Shown here in pieces: positions 1,369 to 16,892 of a DNA stretch of 30,107 nucleotides. Within the stretch, counting starts at the first letter, position 1. Each line of letters begins with the position of its first letter. The notes below the pieces were generated by a model that ran no database searches, was not told the origin of the DNA, and worked only from the letters and a program-made list of their open reading frames with translations. The translations under genes and the position numbers were made by a program. The stretch is from a virus (Duplodnaviria > Heunggongvirae > Uroviricota > Caudoviricetes), in IMG/VR virus record IMGVR_UViG_2698536535_000005, positions 1 to 30,107 of that record. One strand, 5' to 3'.

Positions 1369-1444
1369 GCCGATATAGCTCAGTTGGTAGAGCAGCGCAT
1401 TCGTAATGCGAAGGTCGTAGGTTCGACTCCTATTATCGGCACCA
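1369..1444 (+). tRNA. thrW: tRNA-Thr (anticodon CGU)
   Basis: 76-nt sequence GCCGATATAGCTCAGTTGGTAGAGCAGCGCATTCGTAATGCGAAGGTCGTAGGTTCGACTCCTATTATCGGCACCA; acceptor stem GCCGATA/TATCGGC pairs, anticodon loop TTCGTAA gives CGT, encoded CCA end. Confidence 0.93.
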
Positions 1445-1610
1445 TTCTAACGTCTCCCCAAGTCTACTCAAGTATTTAAAAACTTCTTATAATCCGCATG
1501 TTATCGCCCCTTTTAGTCTTTTGACGTCTACTTAAGTACCCCAAAATCTACAGTCAATTGGGGGGACTTTTGGGGGTATTTGCTGTTCGGTTTAGTGGAG
1601 GTACCCCCAA

Positions 1611-2825
1611 GTGAAACTCAATGCCCGTCAAATAGACACTGCCAAGCCAAAAGAGAAGGCTTACAAGCTGGCTGATGGTGGTGGTCTGTATCTCCTGGTA
1701 AAACCTAGTGGAGGAAAATACTGGCGCTTTAAATATCGTGTAGCTGGTAAAGAGAAGCTGTTAGCACTAGGTGTGTATCCTGAAGTTACCTTGGCTGATG
1801 CTCGTGCAAAACGTGAAGAAGCTAAAAGGGGTATCGCTGGGGGTATCGATCCGATGGAAGCGAAACGAGAGGAAAAGATTGCCCGGGAAACGCAGTTAAA
1901 CAATACCTTCAAAGATATTGCCCTTGAGTGGCACAGCAGCAAATTAAAAAAATGGTCTGCTGGTTATGCTTCAGATATCCTCGAAGCCTTCAACAAAGAT
2001 GTGTTCCCTTACATTGGCAAAAAACCAATCGCCGAAATCAAACCACTTGAACTTCTGAATGTGCTGCGACGCATCGAGGGGCGCGGTGCTACAGAAAAAG
2101 CCAAAAAAGTGAGGCAGCGGTGCGGGGAAGTTTTCCGCTATGCAATAGTCACTGGTCGCGCAGAGTATAACCCTGCCCCAGATCTTACTAGCGCGATGCA
2201 AGGCCATGAATCTAATCATTATCCTTTCCTCACAGCCAAAGAATTGCCTGATTTTTTCAAGGCATTGTCCAGTTACTCAGGAAGTGCATTGGTTGTTATG
2301 GCGGCTCGTCTACTGATTATCACTGGTTTGCGAACTGGCGAACTGCGCGGTGCATTATGGGATGAAATCGATCTCAACAAGGCTATCTGGGAGATACCTG
2401 CTTCACGGATGAAAATGCGTCGCCCTCATGTGGTGCCTTTGTCTAAGCAGGCTCTTTCTCTTATTGGGCAGATTAAAGAATTAACTGGTAATTATCCGCT
2501 TATGTTTCCCGGCCGTAATGATCCAAGGAAAACAATGAGCGAGGCTAGCATAAACCAAGTATTTAAACGCATCGGCTATAACGGAAAGGTTACTGGTCAT
2601 GGATTCCGGCACACCATGAGCACGATTTTACATGAGCAGGGCTATAACACCGCGTGGATAGAAACGCAGCTTGCACACGTTGATAAGAACTCAATTCGTG
2701 GCACGTACAATCATGCGCAATATCTGGACGGGCGGCGCGAGATGCTCCAGTGGTACGCCGACTATATGGATTCGCTCGAACATGGCGGTAACGTGGTGCA
2801 TGGCAAGTTCGGAAAATGTGGATGA
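1611..2825 (+). CDS. int: tyrosine recombinase, P4-type integrase (N-terminal arm-binding domain plus catalytic domain)
   Basis: 404-aa ORF, GTG start; N-terminus MKLNARQIDTAKPKEKAYKLADGGGLYLLVKPSGGKYWRFKYR is the typical P4-integrase N-terminal domain; C-terminal HGFRHT and trailing tyrosine region; lies directly next to the tRNA. Confidence 0.9.
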   Translation: MKLNARQIDTAKPKEKAYKLADGGGLYLLVKPSGGKYWRFKYRVAGKEKLLALGVYPEVTLADARAKREEAKRGIAGGIDPMEAKREEKIARETQLNNTFKDIALEWHSSKLKKWSAGYASDILEAFNKDVFPYIGKKPIAEIKPLELLNVLRRIEGRGATEKAKKVRQRCGEVFRYAIVTGRAEYNPAPDLTSAMQGHESNHYPFLTAKELPDFFKALSSYSGSALVVMAARLLIITGLRTGELRGALWDEIDLNKAIWEIPASRMKMRRPHVVPLSKQALSLIGQIKELTGNYPLMFPGRNDPRKTMSEASINQVFKRIGYNGKVTGHGFRHTMSTILHEQGYNTAWIETQLAHVDKNSIRGTYNHAQYLDGRREMLQWYADYMDSLEHGGNVVHGKFGKCG

Positions 2826-2953
2826 CTGGTTGCGTATACAGTAGTAGACTTTGAGCGACGAAAGAAAAGGCTGTGTCTAGGGTCGCTCCCGAAAATCCGT
2901 ACACCTCGACGGACTGGTACAGCCACTACAGTAGAGGACGCTGAGGTGTGCGT

Positions 2954-3751
2954 ATGATTGATATTCATGCCGAATTAAACGAATACAAAAAAGATTTTAT
3001 TTCTTTACGTGAATTTCTTGAGGTCGTGCTTAAGGTCGCTGGTGATGATTATGATGTTTCAGATGTCATAACTTGGATACTCAGGAGAATAAGCGGAGAA
3101 CATATCCGCCTGTACACAGTAAATGAATTTAAGCTGTTGGAATCTTTTTGTAACCCGTATCGGGATGAATTTGATTATGATGTTCTTTATAGAAATCTGA
3201 ATGCGGTTCGGAAACGTGGTTGTTTACCTGGTGAGAGGGATGAAAATGGTTTTCTGGTGTCCGGTTATTGGGAAGATCCCGAATTTGAGAACATTGGATT
3301 TATAAGGGGTGAAATTTTCGCAATTTTTCCCGATGTCCTTGACGCGTTAACGAAGCTGGAAGGCGCTAACTCTTCTGAAAATGACGAGGCACAAGGACGC
3401 GATATTGAAAAGAAAGAGTTGCGTACAGAGGATGATTTATTATCCCAAATCGCAATGCTGGAAAAAGAAAACGCAGAGTTAAGGGCAAGGATAGAGCAGT
3501 TAGAGCAAGAGCGCCCGATACACTTATATAAATACTGGGATAAAGACCCATTAGCTAAGGCTATTGAGATTAGAAACAGAGAGTGGGCCAATTACGATCC
3601 AGAAAATGATTTTGCCACTAGGGGAAATCAAGAAGCGATAACCAGGGAGCTTAAGCAGTGGGGGGCAAGTAATGCACTTGCAACGCTCATAGAGAGGACT
3701 GCCTGCCCTATTAACCGAGACAACAGCCAAAAGAACGCAAAGCCGGATTAA
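2954..3751 (+). CDS. hypothetical protein with central coiled coil (integrase-proximal cargo gene)
   Basis: ORF with GAGG Shine-Dalgarno 7 nt upstream of the ATG at 2954 (track ORF begins at GTG 2948); AT-rich; predicted coiled coil LSQIAMLEKENAELRARIEQLEQER; no recognisable catalytic motif. Confidence 0.6.
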   Translation: MIDIHAELNEYKKDFISLREFLEVVLKVAGDDYDVSDVITWILRRISGEHIRLYTVNEFKLLESFCNPYRDEFDYDVLYRNLNAVRKRGCLPGERDENGFLVSGYWEDPEFENIGFIRGEIFAIFPDVLDALTKLEGANSSENDEAQGRDIEKKELRTEDDLLSQIAMLEKENAELRARIEQLEQERPIHLYKYWDKDPLAKAIEIRNREWANYDPENDFATRGNQEAITRELKQWGASNALATLIERTACPINRDNSQKNAKPD

Positions 3752-3766
3752 CGCACCATACCGCAT

Positions 3767-3807
3767 ACCCTGAGGGTGATTTACTGTTACCCTGAGGGTA
3801 TTTTTTT
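3767..3807 (+). terminator. putative intrinsic terminator formed by two ACCCTGAGGGT boxes followed by a T7 run
   Basis: Boxes at 3767..3777 and 3789..3799 can pair as an 11-bp stem with one central mismatch and an 11-nt loop, followed by TTTTTTT (3801..3807); sits 16 nt after the stop of the 2954..3751 gene. Confidence 0.45.
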
Positions 3808-3909
3808 ATCTTCCCCGTCAATTTTACCATCACCCTTAGGGTAGATTTCCTCCCGATTACCATCACCCTTAGGGTTAATTTCCTTCCGGTAACCATTAGG
3901 CCTGAGGGT
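3767..3909. promoter_or_regulatory. array of five palindromic ACCCTnAGGGT boxes between the integrase-proximal gene and alpA
   Basis: Boxes at 3767, 3789, 3832, 3865 and 3899; spacings 22, 43, 33 and 34 bp are close to multiples of the helical repeat. Confidence 0.5.
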
Positions 3910-3978
3910 ATGAAAATATTCGTTATTTCTGTGCCAGGATTACCTCGTCAAATTGAGTAGACGTTATGAGGTAAATAT

Positions 3979-4176
3979 ATGTCAAATACGCTTATTCGTT
4001 TAACAGAAGTTCAGCGTAGAACTGGATATAGCAAGGCATGGATTTATCGCCTTATGGGGCAAGGTAAATTTCCTGCATCAGTTAAAATTGGCTCGCGAGC
4101 TATTGCTTTCGTTGAGAGTGAAATTGACGAGTGGATTAATCAGCGTATTGCGGAATCACGCGGAACAGCTACCTGA
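3979..4176 (+). CDS. alpA: AlpA-family prophage regulatory protein (excisionase-like HTH regulator)
   Basis: 65-aa protein LIRLTEVQRRTGYSKAWIYRLMGQGKFPASVKIGSRAIAFVESEIDEWINQR, the characteristic AlpA sequence pattern; GAGG Shine-Dalgarno upstream. Confidence 0.85.
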   Translation: MSNTLIRLTEVQRRTGYSKAWIYRLMGQGKFPASVKIGSRAIAFVESEIDEWINQRIAESRGTAT

Positions 4177-4253
4177 TTAAATGGCTACGGGGCTATTTCC
4201 CCCAGCTATCCACCAGCAAATAAAAGTAACTTAATTCGATAGCAGGAGTTTTT

Positions 4254-5054
4254 ATGAAATTTCCAAAAACGCCCGTACAGGGGCGGGGCTTCGTTCGGCC
4301 TGAAAACCAGAATCTGCAAAATTTCGGCGAAATTATCCCGATTATTTCCGGCGTTATTGGCGGGAGTGAAACCACTATTGTTAGCGCCAGAGCGTTACAT
4401 AAGGCGTTAGGTGTAGGGCGCGTTTTCCGTTCGTGGATCAAGGGGCGCATTGAAGAATACGGGTTCACGGAAGGCGTGGATTATGAGGTTGTTGAATATT
4501 TGAGCCGACCCGATCCGGTGAGCGCAAAATCTCGCCAGCAAACCGCTCTTGAGTACATCATCACAGTGAACATGGCGAAAGAACTGGCGATGGTCGAACG
4601 TACCGAACAGGGCCGCGCCGTTCGCCAGTACTTTATCAAATGCGAGGAGGAGCTACACAAGGTTGCGCCTGTTCGTTCCGCAGCGTTACGCCGGGAACTG
4701 AAAGCCCGTATCACAGTTGCCAGCTACTTTAAGCCAATGTGTGCCGCGCTGGAGGCGTACCGGGCTGAACTGGGTAAAAACACACTCCAGCACCACTACA
4801 CCACGGAAGCGAACATGCTGGCGCGTATCGTACTGGGTGGCATGACTGCAAAACAGTGGGCACTGGCGAACGGCATTACAGGCGAACCACGCGACCACAT
4901 GAGCACGTTGCAGCTTGAGCACCTTTCTTACCTTGAGCAGAGCAATATCACGCTGATTGAGTTAGGCCAGGACTACCACCAGCGGAAGGCTGAATTAATT
5001 CGTCTTTCGCAGCGTTGGTTAGCCCGTCGCATGGAGGAAAACAGCCATGTGTAA
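4254..5054 (+). CDS. phage antirepressor-like protein (AntA/AntB-type N-terminal domain, KilAC-like C-terminal region)
   Basis: 266-aa ORF with AGGAG Shine-Dalgarno; N-terminal segment TIVSARALHKALGVGRVFRSWIKGRIEEYGFTEGVDYEV resembles the AntA/AntB antirepressor domain; assignment by eye only. Confidence 0.5.
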   Translation: MKFPKTPVQGRGFVRPENQNLQNFGEIIPIISGVIGGSETTIVSARALHKALGVGRVFRSWIKGRIEEYGFTEGVDYEVVEYLSRPDPVSAKSRQQTALEYIITVNMAKELAMVERTEQGRAVRQYFIKCEEELHKVAPVRSAALRRELKARITVASYFKPMCAALEAYRAELGKNTLQHHYTTEANMLARIVLGGMTAKQWALANGITGEPRDHMSTLQLEHLSYLEQSNITLIELGQDYHQRKAELIRLSQRWLARRMEENSHV

Positions 5055-5771
5055 CGCTCTGACCGTTACAAAAAGAGAAAGCGCCCCGTTGCCGGAGCGC
5101 CTTTGTGAACGAATAGCCTACTGCGCCATATTGCTTACTGTCTACGAGGCAGATTATAGCGTTGTGGTCGCACAGAGTGAAGGCGCTGATCACCGTTACT
5201 ACAGCACGCCAGAAATGCAGAATATTTTGCTGCAAAATGTCGTTGGTCACACTGTCCGGAAAGCAAAAAATTTTGCTGGTGGCGCGACTGATGCGATTTT
5301 GTCAGGTCGCCAGGTGCTGATCAATCTGATGTCTGATTTCGTTCTGGATAAAACAAAGGCGACCGCAGAGGGCCGCCAGTGGGAAAGCTACATACTTGAA
5401 CGCATCGCCAACAATGCCAGATTTGCGGCTGGTGGGCAATGTGTCAGCTTTGCACCAATGACTCTATGTTTAACTGAGGGTCATTATGGTGAATATGCTG
5501 GCTTGCTGGTGGGCTATTCCTGCTCTTTAACATTGCCATGCCGCGATGTTTTCCAGGTATGCGACCCCATTTTTGTGCGCCTGTACTCTTTAAGGAATTT
5601 CTCAAGGATAAACGCACAGGGCGCGAATCTGTTTGACTCATGCTCGTACGCTATCTTTCTGCGCTGTCTTTTCCGTGCCGGTGATGGTGTATTGGTTGAT
5701 TCTTTGTTGGTCATGGCGCAGCCCTGTAAAACGATGCACCGTAGTTCCTCACACCACGGCGCTGGTGATGG

Positions 5772-5951
5772 TTACTCCTGTTCTTTGGCCTTGCGGCGCT
5801 GGCGGTATTCAACTTCTCGCTTTAATGCTGCTGTTACAAACTGCCCTGTACTTTCACCAGGCATTTTTACCGCCTCAACATTGTTCATAACTTCATGCGG
5901 AACCCTTGCCGCAACTGTTTGTGATTTTGCGTTTACTGCTTTTGTCGCCAT
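5772..5951 (-). CDS. ribbon-helix-helix (Arc/MetJ/CopG-like) DNA-binding protein, putative repressor
   Basis: 59-aa minus-strand ORF (below the ORF-track cutoff) MATKAVNAKSQTVAARVPHEVMNNVEAVKMPGESTGQFVTAALKREVEYRQRRKAKEQE; beta-strand/helix/G-x-S/T loop/helix pattern typical of RHH proteins; AAGGGG Shine-Dalgarno 8 nt upstream; palindromic boxes in its promoter region. Confidence 0.5.
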   Translation of the reverse strand: MATKAVNAKSQTVAARVPHEVMNNVEAVKMPGESTGQFVTAALKREVEYRQRRKAKEQE

Positions 5952-5999
5952 GTTGTGTACCCCTTACAAAAAACAAATGCAGTATGCAGGAAAAAAAAT

Positions 6000-6051
6000 A
6001 AGTGTTCAACACTTGACGTGTTTAACACCTAGGCTTAAATTGGTGTTCAAC
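6000..6051. promoter_or_regulatory. three palindromic GTGTTCAACAC-type operator boxes in a divergent promoter region
   Basis: GTGTTCAACAC at 6000..6010, GTGTTTAACAC at 6016..6026, GTGTTCAACAC at 6041..6051; each is a GTGTT/AACAC inverted repeat; located between the minus-strand RHH gene and the rightward early operon. Confidence 0.45.
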
Positions 6052-6150
6052 ACCTTGTTGATGCAAGGTGCAGAAACGACAACGCCCCGCAGTGGTGGCA
6101 CACATGCAGGGCGTCTAACCACCAACGATAGCAAGAGTATCGAGGTAGCT

Positions 6151-6354
6151 ATGAGAAATCATACCACACACCCGCAAGGGCGGGACTCGCACAACCTGAA
6201 TAAATACATCTGGCGTTTTATCGCCCTGAGCACGGCACAACCGCGCGTAATTCACATCGAGGCCACCAGCGAACAGGAAGCACGCCAGCAATCTCCTGAT
6301 GGCTGCGTGATGGTATTCGCAGCCCGTATTCGCCAGGAGGTGGAACATGTGTAA
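6151..6354 (+). CDS. small hypothetical protein (likely first gene of the rightward early operon)
   Basis: Internal ATG of the 435-aa track ORF, preceded by GAGGT Shine-Dalgarno; ends in the EVEHV-stop coupling motif shared with neighbouring genes. Confidence 0.35.
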   Translation: MRNHTTHPQGRDSHNLNKYIWRFIALSTAQPRVIHIEATSEQEARQQSPDGCVMVFAARIRQEVEHV

Positions 6355-6571
6355 TGCAACATGGCCTGATGCAGCGGTAGACGCTATCAAAACGCTGATG
6401 GATTCACTTATTGAGATTTCTGCTATCGCTGGTGTGGCGCATAAACACGCAGCCAGAGAATCAGAATGCATCTCCCATTATTTAGCATTTGTGCAGCTAA
6501 AAGCCGATCAGGCACTGGATAAGGCCGGAAAAATTATCATGGCTGATGTGCAGGAGGTGCACCATGCATAA
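6347..6571 (+). CDS. small hypothetical protein, early operon
   Basis: AGGAGG Shine-Dalgarno; start overlaps the upstream stop in the CATGTGTAA coupling motif. Confidence 0.5.
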   Translation: MCNATWPDAAVDAIKTLMDSLIEISAIAGVAHKHAARESECISHYLAFVQLKADQALDKAGKIIMADVQEVHHA

Positions 6572-6929
6572 CCTGTCAATTTCTGACCTTAACAGCATTC
6601 AGTTTGACGAGAAATTTACCGGGCAGTTGCTGGTCAATGTGGAGAACGGGCGCATAGTGCGTAATTACCACCTGCCGGATGGTGCAATTGCCGGAAGCGT
6701 TGAAGCATTGCTGGAACTGGCGGAACGTGCGCGACTGATTAAGCCGTCAACGAGCCATCACGATGATGATCTGCATTTTACCGGGCGTATGGTGAGTCAC
6801 TACGAAAACGGCGTTGAAGTATCCCGCGAACGGCTGCGTGATGATTGCTGTTTCGGCACACTGCCGGAATTTATCGAGTTGCTGACCAGTTGCGGTTATC
6901 AGGTCATTCAGGGGGGTAAACATGCGTGA
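6564..6929 (+). CDS. hypothetical protein, early operon
   Basis: Start moved to the ATG preceded by CAGGAGGTG (track ORF begins at 6546); overlaps neighbours by start/stop coupling. Confidence 0.5.
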   Translation: MHNLSISDLNSIQFDEKFTGQLLVNVENGRIVRNYHLPDGAIAGSVEALLELAERARLIKPSTSHHDDDLHFTGRMVSHYENGVEVSRERLRDDCCFGTLPEFIELLTSCGYQVIQGGKHA

Positions 6930-7155
6930 TGATCGTTTTAATTCCCTGAAACGGGAATTTGATGGCGCACCGGAAGATGCAGCGGGCGCATTGTTGAGCG
7001 TTGCTGACATGATGAAAGCTGCATATTTTCTTATCAATACCAGTGGCTACAAGTCAGAGGGTGAAATGATTCTTAGTATTGCGTCGGACTATGCGGAATA
7101 TGTGGCAGAGACGCGTTACAGAAGAAAATTCACGGAGGATGTAAGCCATGCATAA
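6922..7155 (+). CDS. small hypothetical protein, early operon
   Basis: GGGGGG Shine-Dalgarno; overlapping stop/start with both neighbours. Confidence 0.45.
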   Translation: MRDDRFNSLKREFDGAPEDAAGALLSVADMMKAAYFLINTSGYKSEGEMILSIASDYAEYVAETRYRRKFTEDVSHA

Positions 7156-7348
7156 TCATGAAGCGCATGTACCCGTAGTGCTTAATGTGCCAGATGATTT
7201 CACCGGACGCGTACTGGTTTACCTGGATAAAGGGAAAGTGAAATCACAATGCCGACTGAAAAGTAATGAGATTGTTGGTTCTCCTGAATTTTTTTCTGAA
7301 CTTTGTATTCGTGCGGAAATAAAACCGGAACTGCTGACAGGAAAATAA
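7148..7348 (+). CDS. small hypothetical protein, early operon
   Basis: GGAGGA Shine-Dalgarno; overlapping start/stop with the previous gene. Confidence 0.45.
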   Translation: MHNHEAHVPVVLNVPDDFTGRVLVYLDKGKVKSQCRLKSNEIVGSPEFFSELCIRAEIKPELLTGK

Positions 7349-7352
7349 AACC

Positions 7353-7643
7353 ATGAAAAAGAAAAATTCTGGCTTTACTGCCAGCGGCCTCTCTCGGCCT
7401 GAAATCCGCCCCGGTGATATTTCCCGGGACACCAGACGCGGGGGACGGGTGGTTATTCGTCACGTTACGCCAGGCAATATCACCTACCGCCGTGAGGCTT
7501 ACGAATATGACTGCGTAATGCCGCGCCGTCAGTTTGATCGTGATTTTATTCTGGTGGAAAACAAACAACAGGCAGTGGCGAGACGTGCAGCCACGAATAT
7601 TAAAAAAATCCGGGCAATGTTGGTTGCGGGAGGTAAGAAGTGA
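7353..7643 (+). CDS. hypothetical basic protein, early operon
   Basis: 96-aa ORF beginning 5 nt after the previous stop; its stop overlaps the GTG start of the primase gene. Confidence 0.5.
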   Translation: MKKKNSGFTASGLSRPEIRPGDISRDTRRGGRVVIRHVTPGNITYRREAYEYDCVMPRRQFDRDFILVENKQQAVARRAATNIKKIRAMLVAGGKK

Positions 7644-9445
7644 AAAACGCACCGAGTCTAAAATATCAGCCGAAGGATAAATTCACTGAGGTAATCATTT
7701 TTGCCGGGACGGATGCTTACGCCCATGCTCAACACTGGATTGAAAGTGAAGGACGAAAACACGGCGATAACGTGCCTCCTGTTTACCTGGGGCCAAAGCA
7801 ACTGGCAGACCTGGCGAATATCCGCATTATTGACGAGAAACGCCGTTTTGCGCGTGTCTATATCGCGGGGGAGATAGAGCCAATCCAGATCAATACTATC
7901 GCTGAAAAGCTGGCGCTGGCTGGCGTACAGGAGGCGAAATTATACAAAGGTATCACCGACCAGGAACCGGAGAACTGGCGCGACTACCTGCAACGGATCC
8001 GCGAACAGGCTGAGCACGGGGAAGTTTCAGTGATGAAATTAGCTACAAAAAATAGTGGTCTACCCAAGCCTGCATTAAATCAGATGGGAGCCAGCCAGAG
8101 AGGGGAAGTGTTACTTGAACATTATGGAGGAGCACTGGCGATAAATGATGATTCTGATGTAGTTCACCATTACAACGGAATTGTTTGGGAGCCTGTATCT
8201 GATAAGGAACTCCAGCGGTCTATGGCGAAGATTTTTATTGATGCCGAAATTAGTTATTCGCAAAACGCCATTAAATTTGCCGTAGAGACAATGAAATTGA
8301 GTCTACCTGTTATGGGGGGAGCGGACAGAAATCTTATTGGGTTCAGTAACGGTGTTTTTGATATCAGGACAGGAAATTTTCGGGAACACAACAAAAATGA
8401 CTGGTTGTTAAATGCCAGTGAATTACCGTTCAGCCCGCCAGAAGAGGGGGAAACGCTGGCAACACATGCGCCGAATTTCTGGAAGTGGTTGCGTCGTTCG
8501 GTGGCGGATAATGCTCGTAAAGCGGATCGCGTACTGGCGGCATTATTCATGGTACTGGCGAACCGGTACGACTGGCAGTTATTCCTTGAGGTAACGGGGC
8601 CGGGCGGAAGCGGTAAAAGTGTGATGGCGGAGATTTGTACCATGCTGGCGGGTAAGGCCAACACAGTATCGGCAAGCATGAAGGCTCTGGAAGACGCAAG
8701 GGAACGCGCGTTAGTAGTTGGCTTTTCGCTGATTATCATGCCGGATATGACTCGCTACGCTGGCGATGGTGCAGGAATTAAGGCAATTACTGGCGGCGAC
8801 AAGGTGGCAATTGATCCGAAACATAAAGCCCCCTACTCCACACGTATTCCGGCAGTAGTGCTTGCGGTAAACAATAACGCCATGTCATTCAGTGACCGAA
8901 GCGGGGGGATCTCGCGTCGTAGGGTGATATTTAATTTCTCTGAGGTCGTACCGGAGAACGAACGCGATCCCATGCTGGCGGAAAAGATAGAAGGCGAACT
9001 GGCGGTAGTGATTCGCCATTTGCTAACACGATTTACCGACCAGGACGAAGCTAAAAGACTACTTTATGAGCAGCAAAAATCAGAAGAAGCGCTGTTGATA
9101 AAGCGCGAAGGTGATTCACTGGTGGACTTTTGCGGCTATCTGATGTCGTTGGTTAAATGTGAAGGAATGATGGTGGGCAATGCGGAAATAGTGCCATTTA
9201 GCCCGAGGCGATACCTGTATCATGCTTATTTAGCCTATATGTCAGCGCATGGCCTGGGAAAACCAGTATCACTGACACGCTTTGGTACTGATATGCCAGG
9301 AGCTATGGCGGAATACGGAAAGGAGTATAAGCGGGCTAAATGCACTAAAGGCCCGGATAAAGGGCGAGTGATAACAAATGTTCTGTTAGATGATGATGCT
9401 GATGGCTGGTTGCCAGCAGCTACAGGGATTAACGACAGAACATAA
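7640..9445 (+). CDS. P4-family phage/plasmid primase-helicase (C-terminal P-loop NTPase domain)
   Basis: 601-aa ORF, GTG start after GGGAGG; Walker A VTGPGGSGKS and downstream Walker-B-like hydrophobic-DM stretch; overall resemblance to P4 alpha C-terminal / pri-rep proteins of satellites; iteron array immediately downstream. Confidence 0.75.
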   Translation: MKNAPSLKYQPKDKFTEVIIFAGTDAYAHAQHWIESEGRKHGDNVPPVYLGPKQLADLANIRIIDEKRRFARVYIAGEIEPIQINTIAEKLALAGVQEAKLYKGITDQEPENWRDYLQRIREQAEHGEVSVMKLATKNSGLPKPALNQMGASQRGEVLLEHYGGALAINDDSDVVHHYNGIVWEPVSDKELQRSMAKIFIDAEISYSQNAIKFAVETMKLSLPVMGGADRNLIGFSNGVFDIRTGNFREHNKNDWLLNASELPFSPPEEGETLATHAPNFWKWLRRSVADNARKADRVLAALFMVLANRYDWQLFLEVTGPGGSGKSVMAEICTMLAGKANTVSASMKALEDARERALVVGFSLIIMPDMTRYAGDGAGIKAITGGDKVAIDPKHKAPYSTRIPAVVLAVNNNAMSFSDRSGGISRRRVIFNFSEVVPENERDPMLAEKIEGELAVVIRHLLTRFTDQDEAKRLLYEQQKSEEALLIKREGDSLVDFCGYLMSLVKCEGMMVGNAEIVPFSPRRYLYHAYLAYMSAHGLGKPVSLTRFGTDMPGAMAEYGKEYKRAKCTKGPDKGRVITNVLLDDDADGWLPAATGINDRT

Positions 9446-9472
9446 TACGAAATTTATAAGCTGAAACGTAAA

Positions 9473-9811
9473 GGTAGACGGTTGGTAGACAGATTCACTT
9501 AACCCTCTACCAACCATCTACCAATTAATATTTTGAATTATAAAGATATTTTCAATGTGGTAGAGAGGTAGACAGTTATTTCTATATTCCTAAACCACGG
9601 GGGGTATATAAAAAACAGATAGTTAAGGGGGTATTTTTTAAATTTCTCTTTTAACTGTCTACACTGTCTACCATTTAGTAAAAATCATTAATTATCAATG
9701 TATTAATGCGGTAGACCGTTGGTAGACAGTTTGCAGATTGTTTTTTTGTTATGTGTTAATAACATTAAATAAATCAATCAATTATATCGGTAGACAGTTG
9801 GTAGACAGTTG
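9473..9811. repeat. iteron array, putative replication origin of the element
   Basis: At least ten copies of GGTAGAC(AGTT) in both orientations (e.g. 9473, 9484, 9567, 9708, 9721, 9788, 9800; inverted at 9504, 9515, 9655, 9664) interspersed with AT-rich stretches, directly 3' of the primase gene. Confidence 0.7.
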
Positions 9812-9816
9812 TAACG

Positions 9817-10359
9817 ATGGGGCAAAGCATGACTAAGCTGACCATTAACAGAAAACCAAAAGGTATTTACGGCACGCCACAGAAAACGACGCAGGCGGCA
9901 CAGGAGCAGGATAAAACCACATCGGCGCATAAAGTGATGCCCGGTAACCAGAAAGCGCAGCAGAAGCCTACAGGGGCGACACCGTGGCGGCATATGACCA
10001 AACGCCAGCGCAAAAACCGCAGGCGCGTTAACCGCCTCACTGAGTTGTGGCCTGACTTATTCAGCCGGGAAGCACTGAAGCCGCTTAAGGTGGGGATATT
10101 CGACGACCTGATGCAGGATCTCGCCGTCAGGGGGCTGGCATTCGGGCCAGGGGCATTGCGTGCGACGCTGGCATCTTATGCGCAGTGTCCGCGCTATTAC
10201 CGCGCCTTAATGGCTGGTGGGGTACGCTACGACCTGAAAGGCCAGCCGTGCGGCGAGGTGACACCACAGGAACAACAGGACGCAGAAACGCGGCTGGTGG
10301 CGCTGAATGAGAAGCGCAAACGCCAGCGCCGGGCAGCAAAGGAGACAATAGGCGCATGA
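9817..10359 (+). CDS. FinO/ProQ-family RNA-binding protein
   Basis: Central region ALKPLKVGIFDDLMQDL...LRATLASYAQCPRYYRALMAGGVRYDLKGQPCGEVTPQE aligns by eye with the E. coli ProQ N-terminal FinO domain (PLKIGIF, LR.AL..Y, RY, R.DL.G.PCGE). Confidence 0.6.
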   Translation: MGQSMTKLTINRKPKGIYGTPQKTTQAAQEQDKTTSAHKVMPGNQKAQQKPTGATPWRHMTKRQRKNRRRVNRLTELWPDLFSREALKPLKVGIFDDLMQDLAVRGLAFGPGALRATLASYAQCPRYYRALMAGGVRYDLKGQPCGEVTPQEQQDAETRLVALNEKRKRQRRAAKETIGA

Positions 10360-10643
10360 TTCACGACAGCAAAGCGGAAGCACTGGAAGCGCGTGGTCTG
10401 TACCGGAGAGCGGCGGCGCGGTGGGCTGAGGTCATCATGCTGGCGAATGATGACAAGGCACGGGAACAGGCGGCAAAACGTCGCGCGGAATGTATCCACA
10501 AGGCAGCATGCCCACCAGCAAGGCAGGATAATTTCGGGGAGATGCGCGAAACCATCAGCCGGGCACATGCCGGGATGGGATTACATCAGCCCAATGGTGA
10601 GGCATTCAGGAAATACCAAAAAAAGAACAATTGTAGTCAGTAA
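10356..10643 (+). CDS. PerC-like small transcriptional regulator (tentative)
   Basis: 95-aa ORF with AAGGAG Shine-Dalgarno; N-terminus MIHDSKAEALEARGLYRRAAARWAEV resembles the PerC/Pch family N-terminal pattern as I recall it. Confidence 0.4.
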   Translation: MIHDSKAEALEARGLYRRAAARWAEVIMLANDDKAREQAAKRRAECIHKAACPPARQDNFGEMRETISRAHAGMGLHQPNGEAFRKYQKKNNCSQ

Positions 10644-10777
10644 CAGAGGATGGGATTCTCTTGGTTTTTTGTTGATGCTTTCTGAGGAAATCTACTACGT
10701 TGCTGAGCAGATGAATATTCAATTGCATCTGGGTTCCTGATAAGATTAATCTGAATATTTTCATTTGGAATAGGGAT

Positions 10778-11920
10778 ATGAATAAAACTTTAATTGCAAC
10801 ATTAGTCGGTATAGTAATGTTAACCGGATGTGGGCCAGAAGAGTTAACTCCAGAACAGAAACAGGAAGTAGCGGCTCTTAAAGCTGAACTGTCGCAAACG
10901 GAAGGTGAAATATCAGCAGCTAAGGAAGTTGACCAGCAGTTTTCTGGTGGGTTGATAAAAAATCTGACAACAGCAAGACTGGAAATATTAGGAACTAATA
11001 AAGCGCTTTTGGAACAGCGTATTAATGCTATTGAATCAGGTGCCAAAATTGATGTTGTTGTATCTGGAGTAAAACCTGATCCTGAGCTTGCGGCTTCAAT
11101 TAAAACTGAAATTGACAGCTTAGATGCAAAAATCAACGAAGCCAAAGCTGATGCTCGTCAGTATAGTGGTGGTCTGATAAAGGTACTAAAATTATCTACT
11201 GTTGCCACTGAAGAGCAGACCATGGCAATGTTGCAGCAAAAGTACCTCACAGCCAAGTATGGCCTCGCTGAAGTTAAGCTGGCATCAGTACAAGCTAATG
11301 ACGCAAAAAACAGTACTGAAACGGAAGTAACAGCCAAAAATTCCCAAGAGCAACTTCCTTTACTCCCGCCAGCGGATGGTCCGTTTGGCTTAGAAGCCGG
11401 TCTTACACAGAAAAACATCGAAGATATGATCGGTGCTAAGCTCAAGCCACTACCAGACAGTGTGAATCTGTATACTTCTGATAAATTACCGAAGCAAAAC
11501 GCAGATTTTGAAATGTATGGTTTGCTGATCTCCCCGAAAGCTGGTTTATGTCAAATACGGGCTTTAGGAAAAAATATTGATACTGATAGCTATGGATTGG
11601 CTCTTAAATCCAAGTTTGAAGAATTGAGTAATTCTTTAAGTTCTCTGTATGGAAAGGCTGATACTACAGACTTTTTGCTGGCTGGTTCAATTTGGAAAGA
11701 TCCTCAGGACTGGATGAGGGGGCTAAACAAAAAAGAACGCTTCTTATCTGCCACATGGAAGGGAACAAAAGAAATACCATTAAAAAACAATATCGATACT
11801 ATCTCTATTGAGGCCAGAGCGAACAATTCCACTCAGGGATATGTCTATCTGCAGTACTCATTTACAAATGACGAAATTTGTCAGGCAGAAATTGAAGGGG
11901 CGAAAAAAAGTTCCCTTTAA
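10778..11920 (+). CDS. lipoprotein with coiled-coil region and internal repeat
   Basis: Signal peptide MNKTLIATLVGIVMLTGC with LTGC lipobox; repeated motif QFSGGLIKNL / QYSGGLIKVL; AT-rich; intrinsic terminator directly downstream. Confidence 0.7.
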   Translation: MNKTLIATLVGIVMLTGCGPEELTPEQKQEVAALKAELSQTEGEISAAKEVDQQFSGGLIKNLTTARLEILGTNKALLEQRINAIESGAKIDVVVSGVKPDPELAASIKTEIDSLDAKINEAKADARQYSGGLIKVLKLSTVATEEQTMAMLQQKYLTAKYGLAEVKLASVQANDAKNSTETEVTAKNSQEQLPLLPPADGPFGLEAGLTQKNIEDMIGAKLKPLPDSVNLYTSDKLPKQNADFEMYGLLISPKAGLCQIRALGKNIDTDSYGLALKSKFEELSNSLSSLYGKADTTDFLLAGSIWKDPQDWMRGLNKKERFLSATWKGTKEIPLKNNIDTISIEARANNSTQGYVYLQYSFTNDEICQAEIEGAKKSSL

Positions 11921-11931
11921 ACAATCCGTGC

Positions 11932-11960
11932 AAAGCCCCTTAGTAAGGGGCTTTTATATA
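11932..11960 (+). terminator. intrinsic terminator
   Basis: Perfect inverted repeat AAAGCCCCTTA/TAAGGGGCTTT (11932..11954) followed by a T-rich tail. Confidence 0.55.
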
Positions 11961-11984
11961 TTAATGTTCAACGGGGGGGATTAG

Positions 11985-12308
11985 ATGAAAGATAATCTAG
12001 AAAAACTAATTGAAAATACTTTAAAAGATATTCTATTAGCTAATGCTGCTCTAACATTCATTTTTGCAATACCAATGGCTATTATCAGTAGGCATGGGAT
12101 GGGTATCACAATCTGGTTTATAACTGTGCTCATTGCACCTGCTCTGTGTGCAGTAGGTGCATGGCTTGTATCTCGAACATTCGGTCATGCTGAGGAGTTC
12201 TTTCATCGTCGGTGGGCTAAGCGAATCTATGTTTTTTATACTCTTGCGGCTGCCGAGTTTTTGCTTGTGTACTCAATCGCGCAAATAATGAAAAATCTGA
12301 TGAAATAA
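11985..12308 (+). CDS. small integral membrane protein
   Basis: 107-aa ORF with two or three long hydrophobic segments (ALTFIFAIPMAIIS, ITIWFITVLIAPALCAVGAWLV, IYVFYTLAAAEFLLVYSI); G-rich Shine-Dalgarno. Confidence 0.5.
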   Translation: MKDNLEKLIENTLKDILLANAALTFIFAIPMAIISRHGMGITIWFITVLIAPALCAVGAWLVSRTFGHAEEFFHRRWAKRIYVFYTLAAAEFLLVYSIAQIMKNLMK

Positions 12309-12711
12309 TTAACAAGTTATTATCATGGGGTTTGTGGCTGTTAACCTGCAGTGAGGCGACAATCGTGTATTTATAAAAACTTCCCCTTTTCACTCCCCGC
12401 TGTTTCTTCTGCTATTTCCTTTATGTTTGCATGCAGCAACATCTACCATACCTTTGCAGAAAAATCAGAGCATTTAGTGCCGAAGGTTGGTTTATTGATG
12501 CTTTTTGTTTCATTTATTGCAATTATTGTCATTCAGAAGGGATCATCATGAAAAATCACGGAGTAAAGCCAGTTTTACTTTCCCGGGGGCAGATCGAAGC
12601 CCTGTAACGTATCCAGGCCGAAAAGCGTCAGAAATCTGTGCTTGGTGTGGCACCGTCGATTCATGTTATTGCCCGGCAACTGATGGATAAGGCACTTAAA
12701 GAGGTGAGGCT

Positions 12712-12984
12712 GTGAAATTAAATATCAGTGTGGATAAACGCCAGCTATGGCAGAAAAAAGAGAACAGCGAGGCATTCAGGGCTTTGCTGGTGGAAAATCT
12801 TCGGCACCGGTTCAGTGGAGAGTTGCCTGATGCACTGGGGAAGAAACTGGAATCCCTGACGGTGGAAATTGGCGATTATGGCTTTGTTGATGTTGAAAGC
12901 ACGACTGCCAACACAGAAATCGTAAAGCAGGTCGTCAATGATGTAATGAAAACCACGCTTAGCCAGCCATCCTGGCGCAACTGA
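12712..12984 (+). CDS. hypothetical protein
   Basis: 90-aa ORF with GTG start after GAGGTGAGG; no recognisable motif. Confidence 0.35.
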   Translation: MKLNISVDKRQLWQKKENSEAFRALLVENLRHRFSGELPDALGKKLESLTVEIGDYGFVDVESTTANTEIVKQVVNDVMKTTLSQPSWRN

Positions 12985-13083
12985 ATCAGTAAGGGGCGGT
13001 TATTGCCCCTTTCCTCCATACCCACAACGCATTCCCTTTTCGCATGAAATTATTTTTTATCGTATATGCATGAGGTGAGTTAC

Positions 13084-13608
13084 ATGTTGATGAGTAAAGC
13101 CGAATACGCCAAATACAAAGGCGTAAGCCGCCAGACAGTTTACGACTGGATCGAGAAAGGCGAAGTGATCATGTCTGGCAAAAAAATTGATGTGGAGGCG
13201 ACAGAGCAGCGGAACAGCCCACCGGCACAGGGGAAAGACACCGTTTCTGAAATGTGGCCAGAAAGAACGCTGGAAATGACGTGGGGCGAGTTCTGGAAAG
13301 CAGTTAAGGCCAGAGACGGTAAAATCCCTGCGCCAGTAACGGACGACGACATACAGCAACGTGTGCTGGATGCAGCCGGGGAATTAGACTGGGAAGTGCA
13401 ATTTCTTGATGATGGCGGGATTTGGATGGATGACGGCGATGCTGAGTTTTATTTCGAGCAATATGATCTCAGGCAGAATGCCGAACTGGTGATTGGTACG
13501 CTGCGACGTGAGGTCTGTTATGTGGCTGATGCTTGTCCTGACGAGCTGGATAACTGGAGCGAAGCCGGACTAAACGCCCTGGCTGCATGGGAAAAAACAG
13601 GTCATTAA
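13084..13608 (+). CDS. HTH DNA-binding protein with acidic C-terminal domain (possible small-terminase-like or regulatory protein)
   Basis: Start taken at the ATG preceded by GAGGTGA (track ORF starts 13066); N-terminal MSKAEYAKYKGVSRQTVYDWIEKGEV is a phage-type helix-turn-helix; repeat array immediately downstream. Confidence 0.55.
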   Translation: MLMSKAEYAKYKGVSRQTVYDWIEKGEVIMSGKKIDVEATEQRNSPPAQGKDTVSEMWPERTLEMTWGEFWKAVKARDGKIPAPVTDDDIQQRVLDAAGELDWEVQFLDDGGIWMDDGDAEFYFEQYDLRQNAELVIGTLRREVCYVADACPDELDNWSEAGLNALAAWEKTGH

Positions 13609-13615
13609 CGGCCGC

Positions 13616-13821
13616 AAAAAGTGTCAAGTTGAGCAGCTTGCCAGGTTGGCACTTTACACTCTGAACACGAAAAAGTGTCAACCTCGCTGTAAACCCTGCC
13701 ATTACTGGCCTTGAGCCATATTTACCACGCCAGAAACCCGTGAAAACCGCGAAAAGTGTCAAGTTGTCATGCTTAGAAATGCCAGGGTTTTTCGCGAAAA
13801 AGTGTCAAGTGTGTCAACCTG
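13616..13821. repeat. array of AAAAGTGTCAA boxes (putative protein-binding sites)
   Basis: Five GTGTCAA cores at 13621, 13675, 13756, 13803 and 13811, most preceded by an A-run, between the HTH gene and the next small ORF. Confidence 0.6.
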
Positions 13822-13850
13822 CGATATTAAGATTTCCTAAGGTGTAAACC

Positions 13851-14045
13851 ATGACCATCACCGAAGCCGATTTGCTGGATATAGTGCGCAGCGTGGCTGG
13901 AATTAGCGAATTGCCAAAGAAAGCCAGATTTGCCGATTATGCGGACGTGGTAGCTGCTGCAATGCAGCTAGAAGATCATGCTCCGAATGAAGGAGATTTG
14001 CTGCATATCCGCATCCGATCGGCGGCGATACTGGCAGCCCGTTGA
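13851..14045 (+). CDS. small hypothetical protein
   Basis: 64-aa ORF; weak support only. Confidence 0.3.
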   Translation: MTITEADLLDIVRSVAGISELPKKARFADYADVVAAAMQLEDHAPNEGDLLHIRIRSAAILAAR

Positions 14046-14429: not shown

Positions 14430-14432
14430 TAA

Positions 14433-16852: not shown

Positions 16853-16859
16853 AGAAAAG

Positions 16860-16883: not shown

Positions 16884-16892
16884 AATATGGGT

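What the first reader, a model, noticed from the sequence alone, without database searches (positions are those of the whole stretch)
2954..3751. Integrase-proximal AT-rich gene encoding a coiled-coil protein of unknown function
The gene sits between int and alpA, a position that in P4-like and PICI-like elements is occupied by variable cargo or by the element's master repressor. The product has an N-terminal globular region, a central coiled coil and no HTH, so it does not look like a classical repressor. It is followed by the array of palindromic boxes.
Basis: inference. Interest (0 to 1): 0.45.

Follow-up and report, generated by a model that had tools for sequence, protein, structure and literature searches.

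The report
Candidate switch protein controlling a phage satellite
The gene between the integrase and alpA of this 16-kb phage-satellite island is real, and it looks less like cargo than like an undescribed modular DNA-binding regulator that sits on the repeated boxes in front of alpA, which makes it a testable candidate for how such satellites in Gram-negative bacteria sense their helper phage.

Summary
The ORF (2954-3751, +, 265 aa) is real. It lies in a 16.2-kb EcCIMP1-like satellite at thrW. No Pfam, NCBIfam, PADLOC or PDB relative was found, and only 123 clusters in 1.84 billion proteins match.

In about 40 loci from Enterobacterales and Pasteurellaceae the family, or an analogue, sits in one fixed module: int, the Rfam int-alpA RNA, the slot gene, a repeat array, then alpA.

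The repeat type follows the C-terminal domain class:
- C1: ACCCTnAGGGT.
- C2: ACCGCAATTGCGGT.
- C3: direct repeats ACTTCCA.
- Two further classes, one locus each.

It does not follow the N-domain or the AlpA recognition helix, which recombine freely on either side. Classes with a coiled coil have palindromes; C3 has none and has direct repeats. Boxes keep fixed, helically phased positions, the nearest about -42 from a predicted -35-less alpA promoter.

Best reading: a sequence-specific regulator of the alpA promoter with a swappable sensor domain, probably an activator, possibly an Stl-like repressor. DNA binding is inferred from comparison only. This is a new variant of a known kind.

The parts
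1369..1444 (+). tRNA-Thr(CGT), thrW. The attL core TCCTATTATC lies at 1428-1437.
   Evidence: ARAGORN. The core repeat reported for EcCIMP1 (PMC11773190) occurs at 1428-1437 and again at 17680-17689.
1611..2825 (+). Tyrosine integrase of the island, P4/CP4-57 type with an arm-binding domain.
   Evidence: Pfam Arm-DNA-bind_3, Phage_int_M and Phage_integrase. It is 96% identical to the EcCIMP1 integrase.
2870..2937 (+). Structured RNA motif 'int-alpA RNA' (Rfam RF02996). Here it is the conserved leader that ends about 16 nt before the start codon of the slot gene.
   Evidence: cmscan 45.5 bits against a gathering score of 35.8. The motif holds the same position before slot genes of classes C1, C2 and C3 in 15 other loci, and it is absent from EcCIMP1, which has no slot gene.
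2954..3751 (+). The target gene (265 aa). N-terminal acidic domain aa 1-140 (2954-3373); disordered linker aa 141-156; parallel-dimer-type coiled coil aa 157-186 (3422-3511); basic four-helix C1 domain aa 187-255 (3512-3718).
   Evidence: ORF and translation; homologues and alignment; AlphaFold2 models; identity and pI by domain.
3767..3777 (.). Box 1, ACCCTGAGGGT. Centre about -206 from the alpA ATG.
3789..3799 (.). Box 2, ACCCTGAGGGT. Centre about -184 from the alpA ATG.
3832..3842 (.). Box 3, ACCCTTAGGGT. Centre about -141 from the alpA ATG.
3865..3875 (.). Box 4, ACCCTTAGGGT. Centre about -108 from the alpA ATG.
3892..3909 (.). Proximal composite, degenerate box (ACCATTAGGCC overlapping GGCCTGAGGGT). 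Its centre is about -74 from the alpA ATG, which is about -42 from the predicted transcription start.
   Evidence: It is conserved in register in 8 C1 loci (alignment A3).
3932..3940 (+). Predicted extended -10 of the alpA promoter (TGcCAGGAT), with no recognisable -35. The predicted start is near 3947. This is an inference only.
   Evidence: TG and A..AT are the conserved columns between the last box and the leader hairpin in 10 loci of classes C1 and C3. The consensus promoter scan found nothing on the + strand.
3940..3974 (+). Hairpin in the alpA leader that pairs the alpA Shine-Dalgarno sequence (GAGG, 3968-3971). A transcript starting at the predicted promoter would lack the 5' arm.
   Evidence: RNAfold of this locus and 20 related loci. 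SD-sequestering stems appear in two unrelated leader sequence types.
3979..4176 (+). alpA, the master activator of Gram-negative PICIs.
   Evidence: Pfam PF05930. Its role is shown in PMC6092414 and PMC11773190.
17680..17689 (+). attR core repeat. The island therefore spans about 1438-17689 (16.2 kb).
   Evidence: Chromosomal genes resume after this point in the identical SCU-316 locus.

Best explanation
The protein is a sequence-specific DNA-binding regulator of the island's master gene alpA, and a member of an undescribed modular family.

Proposed mechanism:
1. The basic C-terminal four-helix domain (C1, aa 187-255), dimerised by the leucine-zipper-like coiled coil, binds the five helically phased ACCCTnAGGGT palindromes between its own stop codon and alpA.
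2. The acidic, rapidly exchanged N-terminal domain is the input module. I infer that it senses a helper-phage product.
3. The gene is probably made constitutively with int, behind the int-alpA RNA leader.
4. My committed reading of the sign is that it is a latent activator. When triggered it recruits RNA polymerase to a weak, -35-less alpA promoter from a site centred near -42, helped by upstream sites on the same face of the DNA. AlpA then autoactivates and drives excision and replication.
5. Read-through transcripts from int and the slot gene would stay silent, because the alpA ribosome-binding site is locked in a leader hairpin that a promoter-initiated transcript would lack.

Shown by computation: the module, the co-variation of domain and boxes, the conserved positions, and the domain architecture.

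Inferred, not shown: DNA binding itself, the promoter and transcription start, the sign of regulation, and the phage input.
For: (1) Synteny. In all 11 Enterobacterales loci found with the family profile, the order is int, homologue, 70-310 bp, alpA, with integrase identity as low as 38%. An AlpA-like gene also follows the homologue in the Pasteurellaceae loci read through.

(2) Box class follows C-domain class.
- The C1 box (at most 1 mismatch) occurs 26 times in 3.3 kb of C1 intergenic DNA, against 1 in 157 kb of flanks, and 0 in C2, C3 or EcCIMP1 intergenic DNA.
- The C2 box occurs 14 times in 0.83 kb against 1 in 45 kb.
- C3 proteins (P0095, P0102, P0115) share the window protein's N-domain. 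Their box is instead ACTTCCA, as 3-6 direct repeats.
- Proteins with other N-domains but the C1 domain keep ACCCTnAGGGT.
- P0108 has a Pasteurellaceae-type N-domain with a C2 domain and has ACCGyArTTrCGGT boxes.

(3) AlpA is not the determinant. The same recognition helix (RRTGYSKAW[I/L]YRL) occurs with C1, C2 and C3 boxes, and with none in EcCIMP1. The alpA leader types also reassort relative to the box classes.

(4) Classes with a coiled coil (C1, C2) have palindromes. C3 has no coiled coil and has direct repeats.

(5) Fine co-variation within C1. Proteins with TRGNQ go with ACCCTnAGGGT, those with S[IT]P[ST]Q with ACCaTnAtaGT, and those with APKA (Pasteurellaceae) with ACTATnATAGT.

(6) The C-domain is the only basic part (pI 8.1, against 4.5 for the N-domain).

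(7) Box centres keep fixed positions from the alpA ATG across genera (-205, -173, -150, -107, -73). Spacings are multiples of about 10.7 bp (resultant R 0.78, against 0.31 for the random 95th percentile).

(8) Reverse search. Five of the six IMG/VR loci with at least 3 boxes within 300 bp carry a C1 gene upstream and alpA downstream; the sixth, L132, is the exception discussed below.

(9) Points favouring an activator:
- No box overlaps the predicted -10 or the start.
- Proximal sites lie near -42 (C1), near -40.5 and -61.5 (C2), and near -38.5 and -59.5 (C3).
- Decayed slot genes coexist with intact boxes and alpA (L020, L010, L013). That would be hard to tolerate for a lost repressor, since AlpA over-expression causes uncontrolled replication (PMC6092414).

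(10) The N-part and C-part occur as two separate ORFs in three genera and are fused in E. coli, which suggests interacting modules.

(11) One genome (F9792) carries two near-identical island backbones, one with a C1 cassette and one with a C2 cassette.
Against: - The C-domain coding region and the boxes are physically adjacent. Part of their co-occurrence could therefore be simple linkage.
- The promoter and transcription start are predictions from conservation only, and the consensus scan found no + strand promoter. In C3 locus L035 the proximal pair of sites lies nearer -31.
- Functional satellites without this gene (EcCIMP1, EcCICFT073) are still silent without a helper phage and induced by one. 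The protein is therefore not a universal requirement.
- A 127-kb phage contig (L132) uses the same palindrome next to at least 15 promoters and has no C1 homologue in the 14 kb held. Another factor may therefore read this box.
- No phage in INPHARED encodes a relative. No link to a specific helper phage was found.
Confidence: 0.55

Rival explanations
1. Same DNA binding, opposite sign. The protein is the island's master repressor, a Gram-negative counterpart of SaPI Stl. Dimers coat the phased boxes and keep the alpA promoter shut (or block read-through from int), until a helper-phage protein binds the N-domain and releases it.
For: All the co-variation evidence above applies equally. Further points:
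- Likely constitutive expression downstream of int.
- A multi-site array.
- Diversification of the DNA-binding domain and its operator, and coexistence of different classes in one genome, which recall phage immunity regions.
- Precedent from Stl. PMC6092414 states that a global repressor in Gram-negative PICIs is 'unclear'.
Against: - No box overlaps the predicted -10 or start, in C1, in C2 or in C3 locus L038.
- The predicted promoter lacks a -35, so it would be weak even when unrepressed.
- Remnant or truncated slot genes persist next to intact alpA and boxes.
- Slot-less satellites are silent without any such repressor.
Confidence: 0.22
2. The boxes are read by another factor, such as a helper-phage or host transcription factor. 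The slot protein would then act at protein level (for example on AlpA, Int or a phage protein), or would compete with or mimic that factor.
For: - The same palindrome sits 8-9 nt upstream of consensus TTGACA -35 elements at at least 15 promoters of an unknown 127-kb phage contig.
- alpA is known to be switched on by helper phages through an unknown route.
- The C1 fold is not a recognised DNA-binding fold.
Against: - Box class changes with the slot protein's C-domain within one species, and even within one genome, while AlpA and the island backbone stay the same.
- The link between coiled coil and palindromes, and between no coiled coil and direct repeats, would be a coincidence under this reading.
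- The Arg-containing TRGNQ motif co-varies with the G-rich half-site.
Confidence: 0.12
3. The gene is accessory cargo in the 5' hotspot of the satellite, for example a new single-gene anti-phage or interference function, and is unrelated to alpA control.
For: - PICIs are reported to carry immune systems at their 5' or 3' ends (PMC11364771).
- The slot differs between close relatives.
- The gene is AT-rich.
- EcCIMP1-like islands give unexplained superinfection immunity.
Against: - No PADLOC hit and no enzymatic or effector domain.
- The gene is always a single gene inside a fixed RNA-gene-boxes-alpA module, across two bacterial orders.
- The cognate repeats keep conserved positions relative to alpA, which free cargo would not need.
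Confidence: 0.07
4. The protein and its repeats are a DNA-handling pair of another kind, such as a small-terminase-like protein with a pac site, a centromere-binding protein with its centromere, or an initiator with iterons.
For: Oligomerising DNA-binding proteins with adjacent repeat arrays are typical of these systems. The 21-23 bp spacings recall iterons.
Against: - No terminase, ParB/ParR or Rep model hits the protein.
- No partner ATPase gene is present.
- The island has its own D5-type primase-helicase.
- C2 cassettes have only two boxes, lying within about 100 bp upstream of the alpA ATG.
- Box positions are fixed relative to alpA.
Confidence: 0.04

Closest known systems
SaPI Stl / PICI Rpr master repressors (Gram-positive phage-inducible chromosomal islands)
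   Same: Encoded next to int in a phage satellite. Highly divergent and modular between related islands. Proposed here, as for Stl, to couple the island's master switch to a specific helper-phage protein through a variable sensing part.
   Different: - Stl is transcribed divergently from the genes it controls and uses a classical HTH. This gene is co-directional with alpA.
- This protein has no detectable HTH and carries its conserved domain at the C-terminus behind a coiled coil.
- Its target is the promoter of an activator (AlpA), and it may itself activate.
- No sequence or fold similarity to Stl was found.
Immunity regions of lambdoid phages (repressor plus cognate operators exchanged as a block)
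   Same: The DNA-binding specificity domain and its sites are swapped together between otherwise near-identical backbones. Elements of different specificity coexist in one cell.
   Different: There is no cI/Cro pair and no divergent promoters. The sites lie upstream of the core promoter instead of over it. The input domain recombines separately.
OmpR/PhoB-type and class II activators (phased upstream sites, proximal site near -41)
   Same: The geometry matches: a proximal site near -40 abutting a missing -35, with further sites at whole helical turns upstream.
   Different: No receiver or winged-helix OmpR domain is present. The resemblance is one of arrangement only and rests on a predicted promoter.
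EcCIMP1 (E. coli MP1 satellite at the same thrW site; helper phage Kapi1; PMC11773190)
   Same: Same att core, 96% identical integrase, 81% identical AlpA, and AntA, Icd-like and PerC genes. alpA is its master regulator and is helper-induced.
   Different: EcCIMP1 has a 428-bp int-alpA gap with no such gene, no boxes and no int-alpA RNA.
LuxR-family co-regulator next to alpA in PIME1 integrative mobilizable elements (bioRxiv 10.64898/2026.01.12.698999)
   Same: A second regulator in the alpA regulatory region of an int-alpA element, required for excision together with AlpA.
   Different: It belongs to a different protein family (LuxR), is divergently oriented, and responds to a conjugative helper rather than a phage.

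Membership tests
SaPI Stl / PICI Rpr master repressor | Encoded beside int and transcribed divergently from the operon it represses. | tested here: not met
   The gene is beside int but co-directional with int and alpA.
SaPI Stl / PICI Rpr master repressor | Recognisable N-terminal HTH (XRE-type) DNA-binding domain. | tested here: not met
SaPI Stl / PICI Rpr master repressor | Binds operators at the promoter of the island's lytic-cycle genes. | tested here: inconclusive
   Cognate boxes upstream of alpA co-vary with the C-domain. Binding itself was not observed.
SaPI Stl / PICI Rpr master repressor | Repression is lifted when a helper-phage protein binds the repressor. | not testable with these tools
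   This needs genetics or biochemistry. The only supporting observation is that the N-domain is variable and shuffled.
AlpA / Vis / excisionase family (PF05930, HTH_17) | Match to the family model. | tested here: not met
   The target does not hit PF05930. The neighbouring gene at 3979-4176 does, at 2.4e-19.
Known anti-phage defence proteins (PADLOC-DB 2.0) | Match to any defence-system model. | tested here: not met
   No families matched at E up to 1.
bZIP-type leucine-zipper DNA binders | Dimeric leucine zipper immediately preceded by a basic DNA-contacting region. | tested here: not met
   A zipper-like helix is present (aa 159-186, Asn172 at an 'a' position). The segment before it is acidic and disordered, and the basic domain lies after it.
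Small terminase (TerS) | Match to terminase small-subunit models, and location in a packaging module. | tested here: not met
   No Pfam or PHROG terminase hit. The gene lies between int and alpA, not in the position downstream of the primase gene that one search gives as typical for packaging genes.
Rfam RF02996 int-alpA RNA (applies to the leader at 2870-2937, not to the protein) | Score above the family gathering threshold with the full model. | tested here: met
   45.5 bits against 35.8, model positions 1-71 of 71.
Gram-negative PICI (applies to the host island) | int, alpA and pri-rep co-oriented; roughly 10-20 kb; flanked by att repeats; no phage structural or lysis genes. | tested here: met
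   int, alpA and a D5_N/DUF5906 primase-helicase are present. att cores lie at 1428 and 17680, giving 16.2 kb. No gene of the identical SCU-316 island is annotated as structural or lytic, though many are 'hypothetical'. Mobilisation by a helper phage was not tested.

The most novel reading that the evidence does not exclude
This family, with its C2, C3 and further analogues, would be the missing helper-phage sensor of a large subset of Gram-negative phage satellites. It would be a plug-and-play one-protein (sometimes two-protein) switch. An exchangeable N-terminal domain would recognise a particular helper-phage protein. An exchangeable, structurally novel C-terminal domain would read a private set of boxes and fire the alpA promoter. 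Satellites could then re-tune which phage induces them, and avoid cross-talk with co-resident satellites, by domain swapping.
Probability: 0.3. Interest if true: 0.8.

Novelty: new variant of a known kind. Interest (0 to 1): 0.62.

Why it matters
How Gram-negative PICIs sense their helper phage has been open since 2018. alpA is switched on only when a helper phage grows, and no repressor or sensor is known (PMC6092414; the 2025 EcCIMP1 study PMC11773190 still does not identify the inducing factor).

This analysis gives a concrete candidate with defined parts: the protein domains, five boxes, a predicted promoter and an RNA leader. It also gives natural swap variants (C1, C2, C3; fused and split forms) that make the hypothesis testable with reporters, EMSA and domain swaps.

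It would add two or more DNA-binding domain types without a recognisable fold. It would give a role to the context of the orphan Rfam motif int-alpA. It would also help predict helper range and cross-talk of satellites that move virulence and defence genes in E. coli. The gene is present in about 2.7% of complete E. coli genomes.

Tried and rejected
**Profile searches.** Pfam, PHROGs, NCBIfam and PADLOC gave only coiled-coil noise or nothing for the target. The same held for C2, C3 and the split forms in Pfam.

**Structure searches.**
- Foldseek against the PDB found nothing with E below 2.
- An HMM search against PDB sequences returned only leucine zippers.

**Homology between C1, C2 and C3.** hhalign probabilities were about 5%. 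I treat them as separate domain types.

**AlpA as the box reader.** Rejected, because the same AlpA recognition helix occurs with three box classes and with none.

**The N-domain as the box reader.** Rejected, for three reasons: the same N-domain family occurs with C1 and C3 boxes; unrelated N-domains occur with C1 boxes; and the N-domain is acidic.

**Integrase arm sites.** Rejected, because the boxes lie 2.3 kb from attL and keep their register with alpA instead.

**Boxes as RNA hairpins or terminators.** The scan flagged two boxes as terminator-like. They have only 5-bp arms around a single base, and the T-run is not conserved in other loci.

**Relatives in sequenced phages.** tblastn against INPHARED found none.

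**Scan of IMG/VR for one exact box.** Most of the 87 loci were single chance hits. The scan was useful only as a reverse check, and for the odd contig L132.

**Literature.** The Cell 2022 paper on PICI immune systems could not be read. Its claim of 5' and 3' cargo is taken second-hand from PMC11364771. No paper in the library mentions this protein. 'int-alpA' appears in only two papers: one uses it in a gene-order string, the other was not opened.
Full report
**Context.** The window opens with proA (1-1254) and thrW (tRNA-Thr, 1369-1444). An island follows, bounded by the 10-bp core TCCTATTATC at 1428-1437 and 17680-17689, so it is 16.2 kb long. This is the att core reported for the functional E. 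coli satellite EcCIMP1, which sits at the same site (PMC11773190). The island carries a P4-type integrase, the target ORF, alpA, an AntA-like gene, DUF4222, a D5-type primase-helicase, ProQ/FinO-like and PerC-like genes. None of its genes is annotated as structural, though many are 'hypothetical'. I treat it as an EcCIMP1-like phage-inducible chromosomal island (PICI). An identical copy is in E. coli SCU-316, where the target is annotated 'hypothetical protein' WP_000565286.1.

- The ORF runs 2954-3751, has a GAGG 7 nt before the ATG, and encodes 265 aa.
- Its GC is 0.414, against 0.473 for int and 0.446 for the island.
- The gene with its flanks is present in 145-153 of 5,426 complete E. coli genomes.
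- Homologues form 43 clusters at 90% identity, all from Enterobacteriaceae.
- A profile search of 1.84 billion representatives finds only 123 clusters.
- Pfam, PHROGs, NCBIfam and PADLOC give nothing beyond coiled-coil noise.

**Architecture.** AlphaFold2 gives four parts:
- a confident N-terminal alpha/beta domain (aa 10-140, pLDDT 85-90);
- a disordered linker (aa 140-156);
- one long helix (aa 159-186);
- a four-helix C-terminal domain (pLDDT 87.5 when modelled with 39 sequences).

Against the window protein, C-domain identity stays at 46-75% in relatives whose N-domain identity falls to 10-30%. The C-domain is the only basic part (pI 8.1), and the N-domain is acidic (pI 4.5).

**A fixed module, not free cargo.** A scan of one genome per species returned 20 loci: Kluyvera, Raoultella, Pantoea, Symbiopectobacterium, Xenorhabdus, Cedecea, Photorhabdus, Atlantibacter, Sodalis and several Pasteurellaceae. 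In every Enterobacterales locus the order is int, homologue, 70-310 bp, alpA, even where the integrase shares only 38-66% identity. In the Pasteurellaceae loci I read through, an AlpA-like gene follows the homologue, and a primase follows in three of them.

The Rfam motif 'int-alpA RNA' (RF02996) hits 2870-2937 at 45.5 bits (gathering score 35.8). Its 3' end lies about 16 nt before the start codon. The same motif precedes the slot gene in 15 other loci, whatever the gene's class. It is absent from EcCIMP1, which has no slot gene.

**The slot varies, but in a structured way.**
- EcCIMP1 has a 428-bp int-alpA gap with no substantial ORF and no boxes.
- E. coli ZF8-1 and eleven IMG/VR loci carry an unrelated 251-aa protein (WP_016262924.1, class C2). 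It also has a coiled coil and also sits between int and alpA.
- P0095, P0102 and P0115 share the window protein's N-domain (profile E-values 2e-15 to 5e-8). They carry a third C-terminal domain (C3) and have no coiled coil. They again sit between int and alpA.
- P0108 joins a Pasteurellaceae-type N-domain to a C2 domain. P0103 and P0094 carry further C-domains.
- In Kluyvera, Raoultella and Symbiopectobacterium the N-part and the C-part (motif, zipper and C1) are two adjacent ORFs. In E. coli P0031 and P0034 they are fused.

**The decisive comparison.** The repeats between the slot gene and alpA follow the C-terminal domain class.

| Class | Repeat | Copies |
|---|---|---|
| C1 | ACCCTnAGGGT (degenerate in Cedecea and Atlantibacter; ACTATnATAGT in Pasteurellaceae) | 3-6 |
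| C2 | ACCGCAA[T/C]TGCGGT (ACCGyArTTrCGGT behind P0108) | 2 |
| C3 | ACTTCCA, direct repeats, all on one strand | 3-6 |
| P0094 | TACCAAT | 6 |
| P0103 | AATATTACGA | 3 |

The counts are clear. The C1 box with at most one mismatch occurs 26 times in 3.3 kb of C1 intergenic DNA. It occurs once in 157 kb of flanking DNA, and never in C2, C3 or EcCIMP1 intergenic DNA. The C2 box occurs 14 times in 0.83 kb against once in 45 kb.

The boxes do not follow AlpA. The recognition helix RRTGYSKAW[I/L]YRL is the same in the window (C1), in L026-L033 (C2), in L035, L038 and L040 (C3) and in EcCIMP1 (no boxes). The boxes do not follow the N-domain either. Two unrelated alpA leader types also reassort against box classes.

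Recombination is therefore frequent on both sides of the unit made of the C-domain and its boxes. It was never seen inside that unit in about 40 loci. This argues against linkage alone as the explanation, though linkage surely contributes.

Three further details fit direct binding by the C-domain:
- Coiled-coil classes have palindromes, and C3, which lacks a coiled coil, has direct repeats.
- Within C1, loss of the TRGNQ motif goes with loss of the G-rich inner positions of the half-site.
- In a reverse search, five of the six IMG/VR loci with at least 3 boxes within 300 bp have a C1 gene upstream and alpA downstream. The sixth, L132, is the exception described below.

**Geometry.** C1 box centres keep the same distances from the alpA ATG across genera (about -205, -173, -150, -107 and -73). 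Spacings cluster at 21-23, 29-35, 42-44 and 52-56 bp, which puts the sites on one face of the helix (R = 0.78; random 95th percentile 0.31).

Between the last box and alpA, the conserved columns spell an extended -10 (TGnCATCAT; TGcCAGGAT at 3932-3940 here), with no -35. This places the start near 3947 and the proximal box near -42.

By the same reasoning the C2 boxes fall near -40.5 and -61.5. The C3 repeats of L038 fall near -38.5, -59.5 and -90.5. In L035 the proximal pair lies nearer -31. The generic promoter scan found nothing on this strand, so the promoter is an inference.

The alpA Shine-Dalgarno sequence is paired in a leader hairpin (3940-3974). Similar SD-sequestering stems occur in two unrelated leader sequence types. 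A transcript starting at the predicted promoter would lack the 5' arm, while read-through from int and the slot gene would contain it.

**Mechanism.** I conclude, at about 0.55, that the protein is a dimeric, sequence-specific regulator that binds the box array and controls the alpA promoter. The exchangeable N-domain would be its input.

Published work shows three relevant things: AlpA is the master activator of Gram-negative PICIs; alpA is switched on only when a helper phage grows; and no repressor or sensor is known (PMC6092414; PMC11773190). The obvious input is therefore a helper-phage product.

For the sign I lean to a latent activator, for three reasons:
- All sites lie upstream of a promoter that lacks a -35.
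- The proximal site sits at class II distance.
- Decayed slot genes coexist with intact boxes and alpA (L020, L010, L013). A lost repressor should be harmful, because AlpA over-expression causes uncontrolled island replication.

An Stl-like repressor remains a serious rival (about 0.22). It is favoured by precedent and by the immunity-region-like swapping of domain and sites. Strain F9792, for example, carries two near-identical islands, one with a C1 cassette and one with a C2 cassette.

**Other rivals.**
- Another factor could read the boxes. A 127-kb IMG/VR phage contig (L132) has 27 copies of the same palindrome in 8 kb. At least 15 of them lie 8-9 nt upstream of a consensus TTGACA, ahead of small genes. 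No C1 homologue is present in the 14 kb held, and the contig has no relative in INPHARED.
- Cargo or defence has literature precedent for the 5' end of PICIs (PMC11364771). It does not explain the module, and there is no PADLOC hit.
- Packaging, partition or replication roles lack any supporting model hit.

**Limits.**
- Nothing here shows DNA binding, the transcription start, the sign of regulation or the phage input.
- The C1, C2 and C3 domains are not detectably related to each other or to known folds.
- Slot-less satellites work without such a protein, so it is an optional layer. The window's allele is in about 150 of the roughly 1,330 E. coli genomes that have a related alpA, and C2 is in 8.

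**Verdict.** The 'cargo' reading is unlikely and the 'regulator' reading is supported by comparison. The family is undescribed: a new variant of a known kind of mobile-element switch. It offers a direct experimental handle on how Gram-negative satellites are induced.

Noticed in passing
window 2870-2937 (+): The Rfam motif int-alpA RNA (RF02996, 45.5 bits) lies between int and the target gene. In related loci it always ends about 16 nt before the slot gene's start codon, whatever the gene's class. It is missing from EcCIMP1, which lacks a slot gene. It therefore looks like the slot gene's leader and not an alpA element.
   Followed up: partly
window 3940-3974 (+): A hairpin pairs the alpA Shine-Dalgarno sequence. 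Equivalent SD-sequestering stems occur in two unrelated leader sequence types in related islands. This suggests that read-through transcripts from int are translationally silent for alpA.
   Followed up: partly
L132 (IMGVR_UViG_3300037313_000197, contig positions 48792-63139): A 127-kb viral contig with no relative in INPHARED carries 27 TACCCTSAGGGTA palindromes in 8 kb. At least 15 are arranged as hairpin, box, 8-9 nt, TTGACA, in front of a string of small genes. An unknown factor reads the same box at many phage promoters.
   Followed up: partly
L004 3651-4447; L005 3920-4855; L007 3537-4270: In Kluyvera, Raoultella and Symbiopectobacterium the slot holds two adjacent ORFs. One is an N-domain protein that ends in DDDIPF or GDIPF. 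The other has the YGFRRSEL motif, the coiled coil and the C1 domain. The two parts are fused in E. coli relatives P0031 and P0034.
   Followed up: partly
L041 and L042 (E. coli F9792, NZ_CP024273.1): One genome carries two islands with near-identical backbones. One, at tRNA-Gly, has a C2 cassette. The other has a C1 cassette (WP_000565285.1).
   Followed up: partly
L003, L004, L005, L007, L015, L026, L030, L032, L036 (downstream of antA): Related islands carry isrK (RF01394) followed by C4 antisense RNA (RF01695) next to an Icd-like gene, a phage P1 immI-like module. Neither RNA reaches the gathering score in this window, although an Icd-like gene is annotated at window 6151-6354.
   Followed up: no
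window 5047-6354 (+) against 5514-5714 (-) and 5772-5951 (-): The mechanical 435-aa ORF on the + strand is probably spurious. RefSeq annotates small genes across this stretch instead: two on the opposite strand, one of them of the YlcI/YnfO family, and an Icd-like gene on the + strand.
   Followed up: no
window 9829-10643 (+): ProQ/FinO-family and PerC-family genes lie downstream of the primase. The PerC homologue of EcCIMP1 was reported to repress LEE1 expression in Citrobacter rodentium (PMC11773190).
   Followed up: no
window about 16909-17285 (-): A frameshifted fragment of a second tyrosine recombinase lies just inside attR. The coordinates are taken from the annotation of the identical SCU-316 locus.
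   Followed up: no
L020 (Sodalis MAG), L010 and L013 (Xenorhabdus, Photorhabdus), L022 (Pasteurellaceae): Remnant or C1-only versions of the slot gene (18-84 aa) persist next to boxes and an intact alpA. C1-only proteins of 64-67 aa also exist as separate clusters (P0085, P0092, P0099).
   Followed up: no
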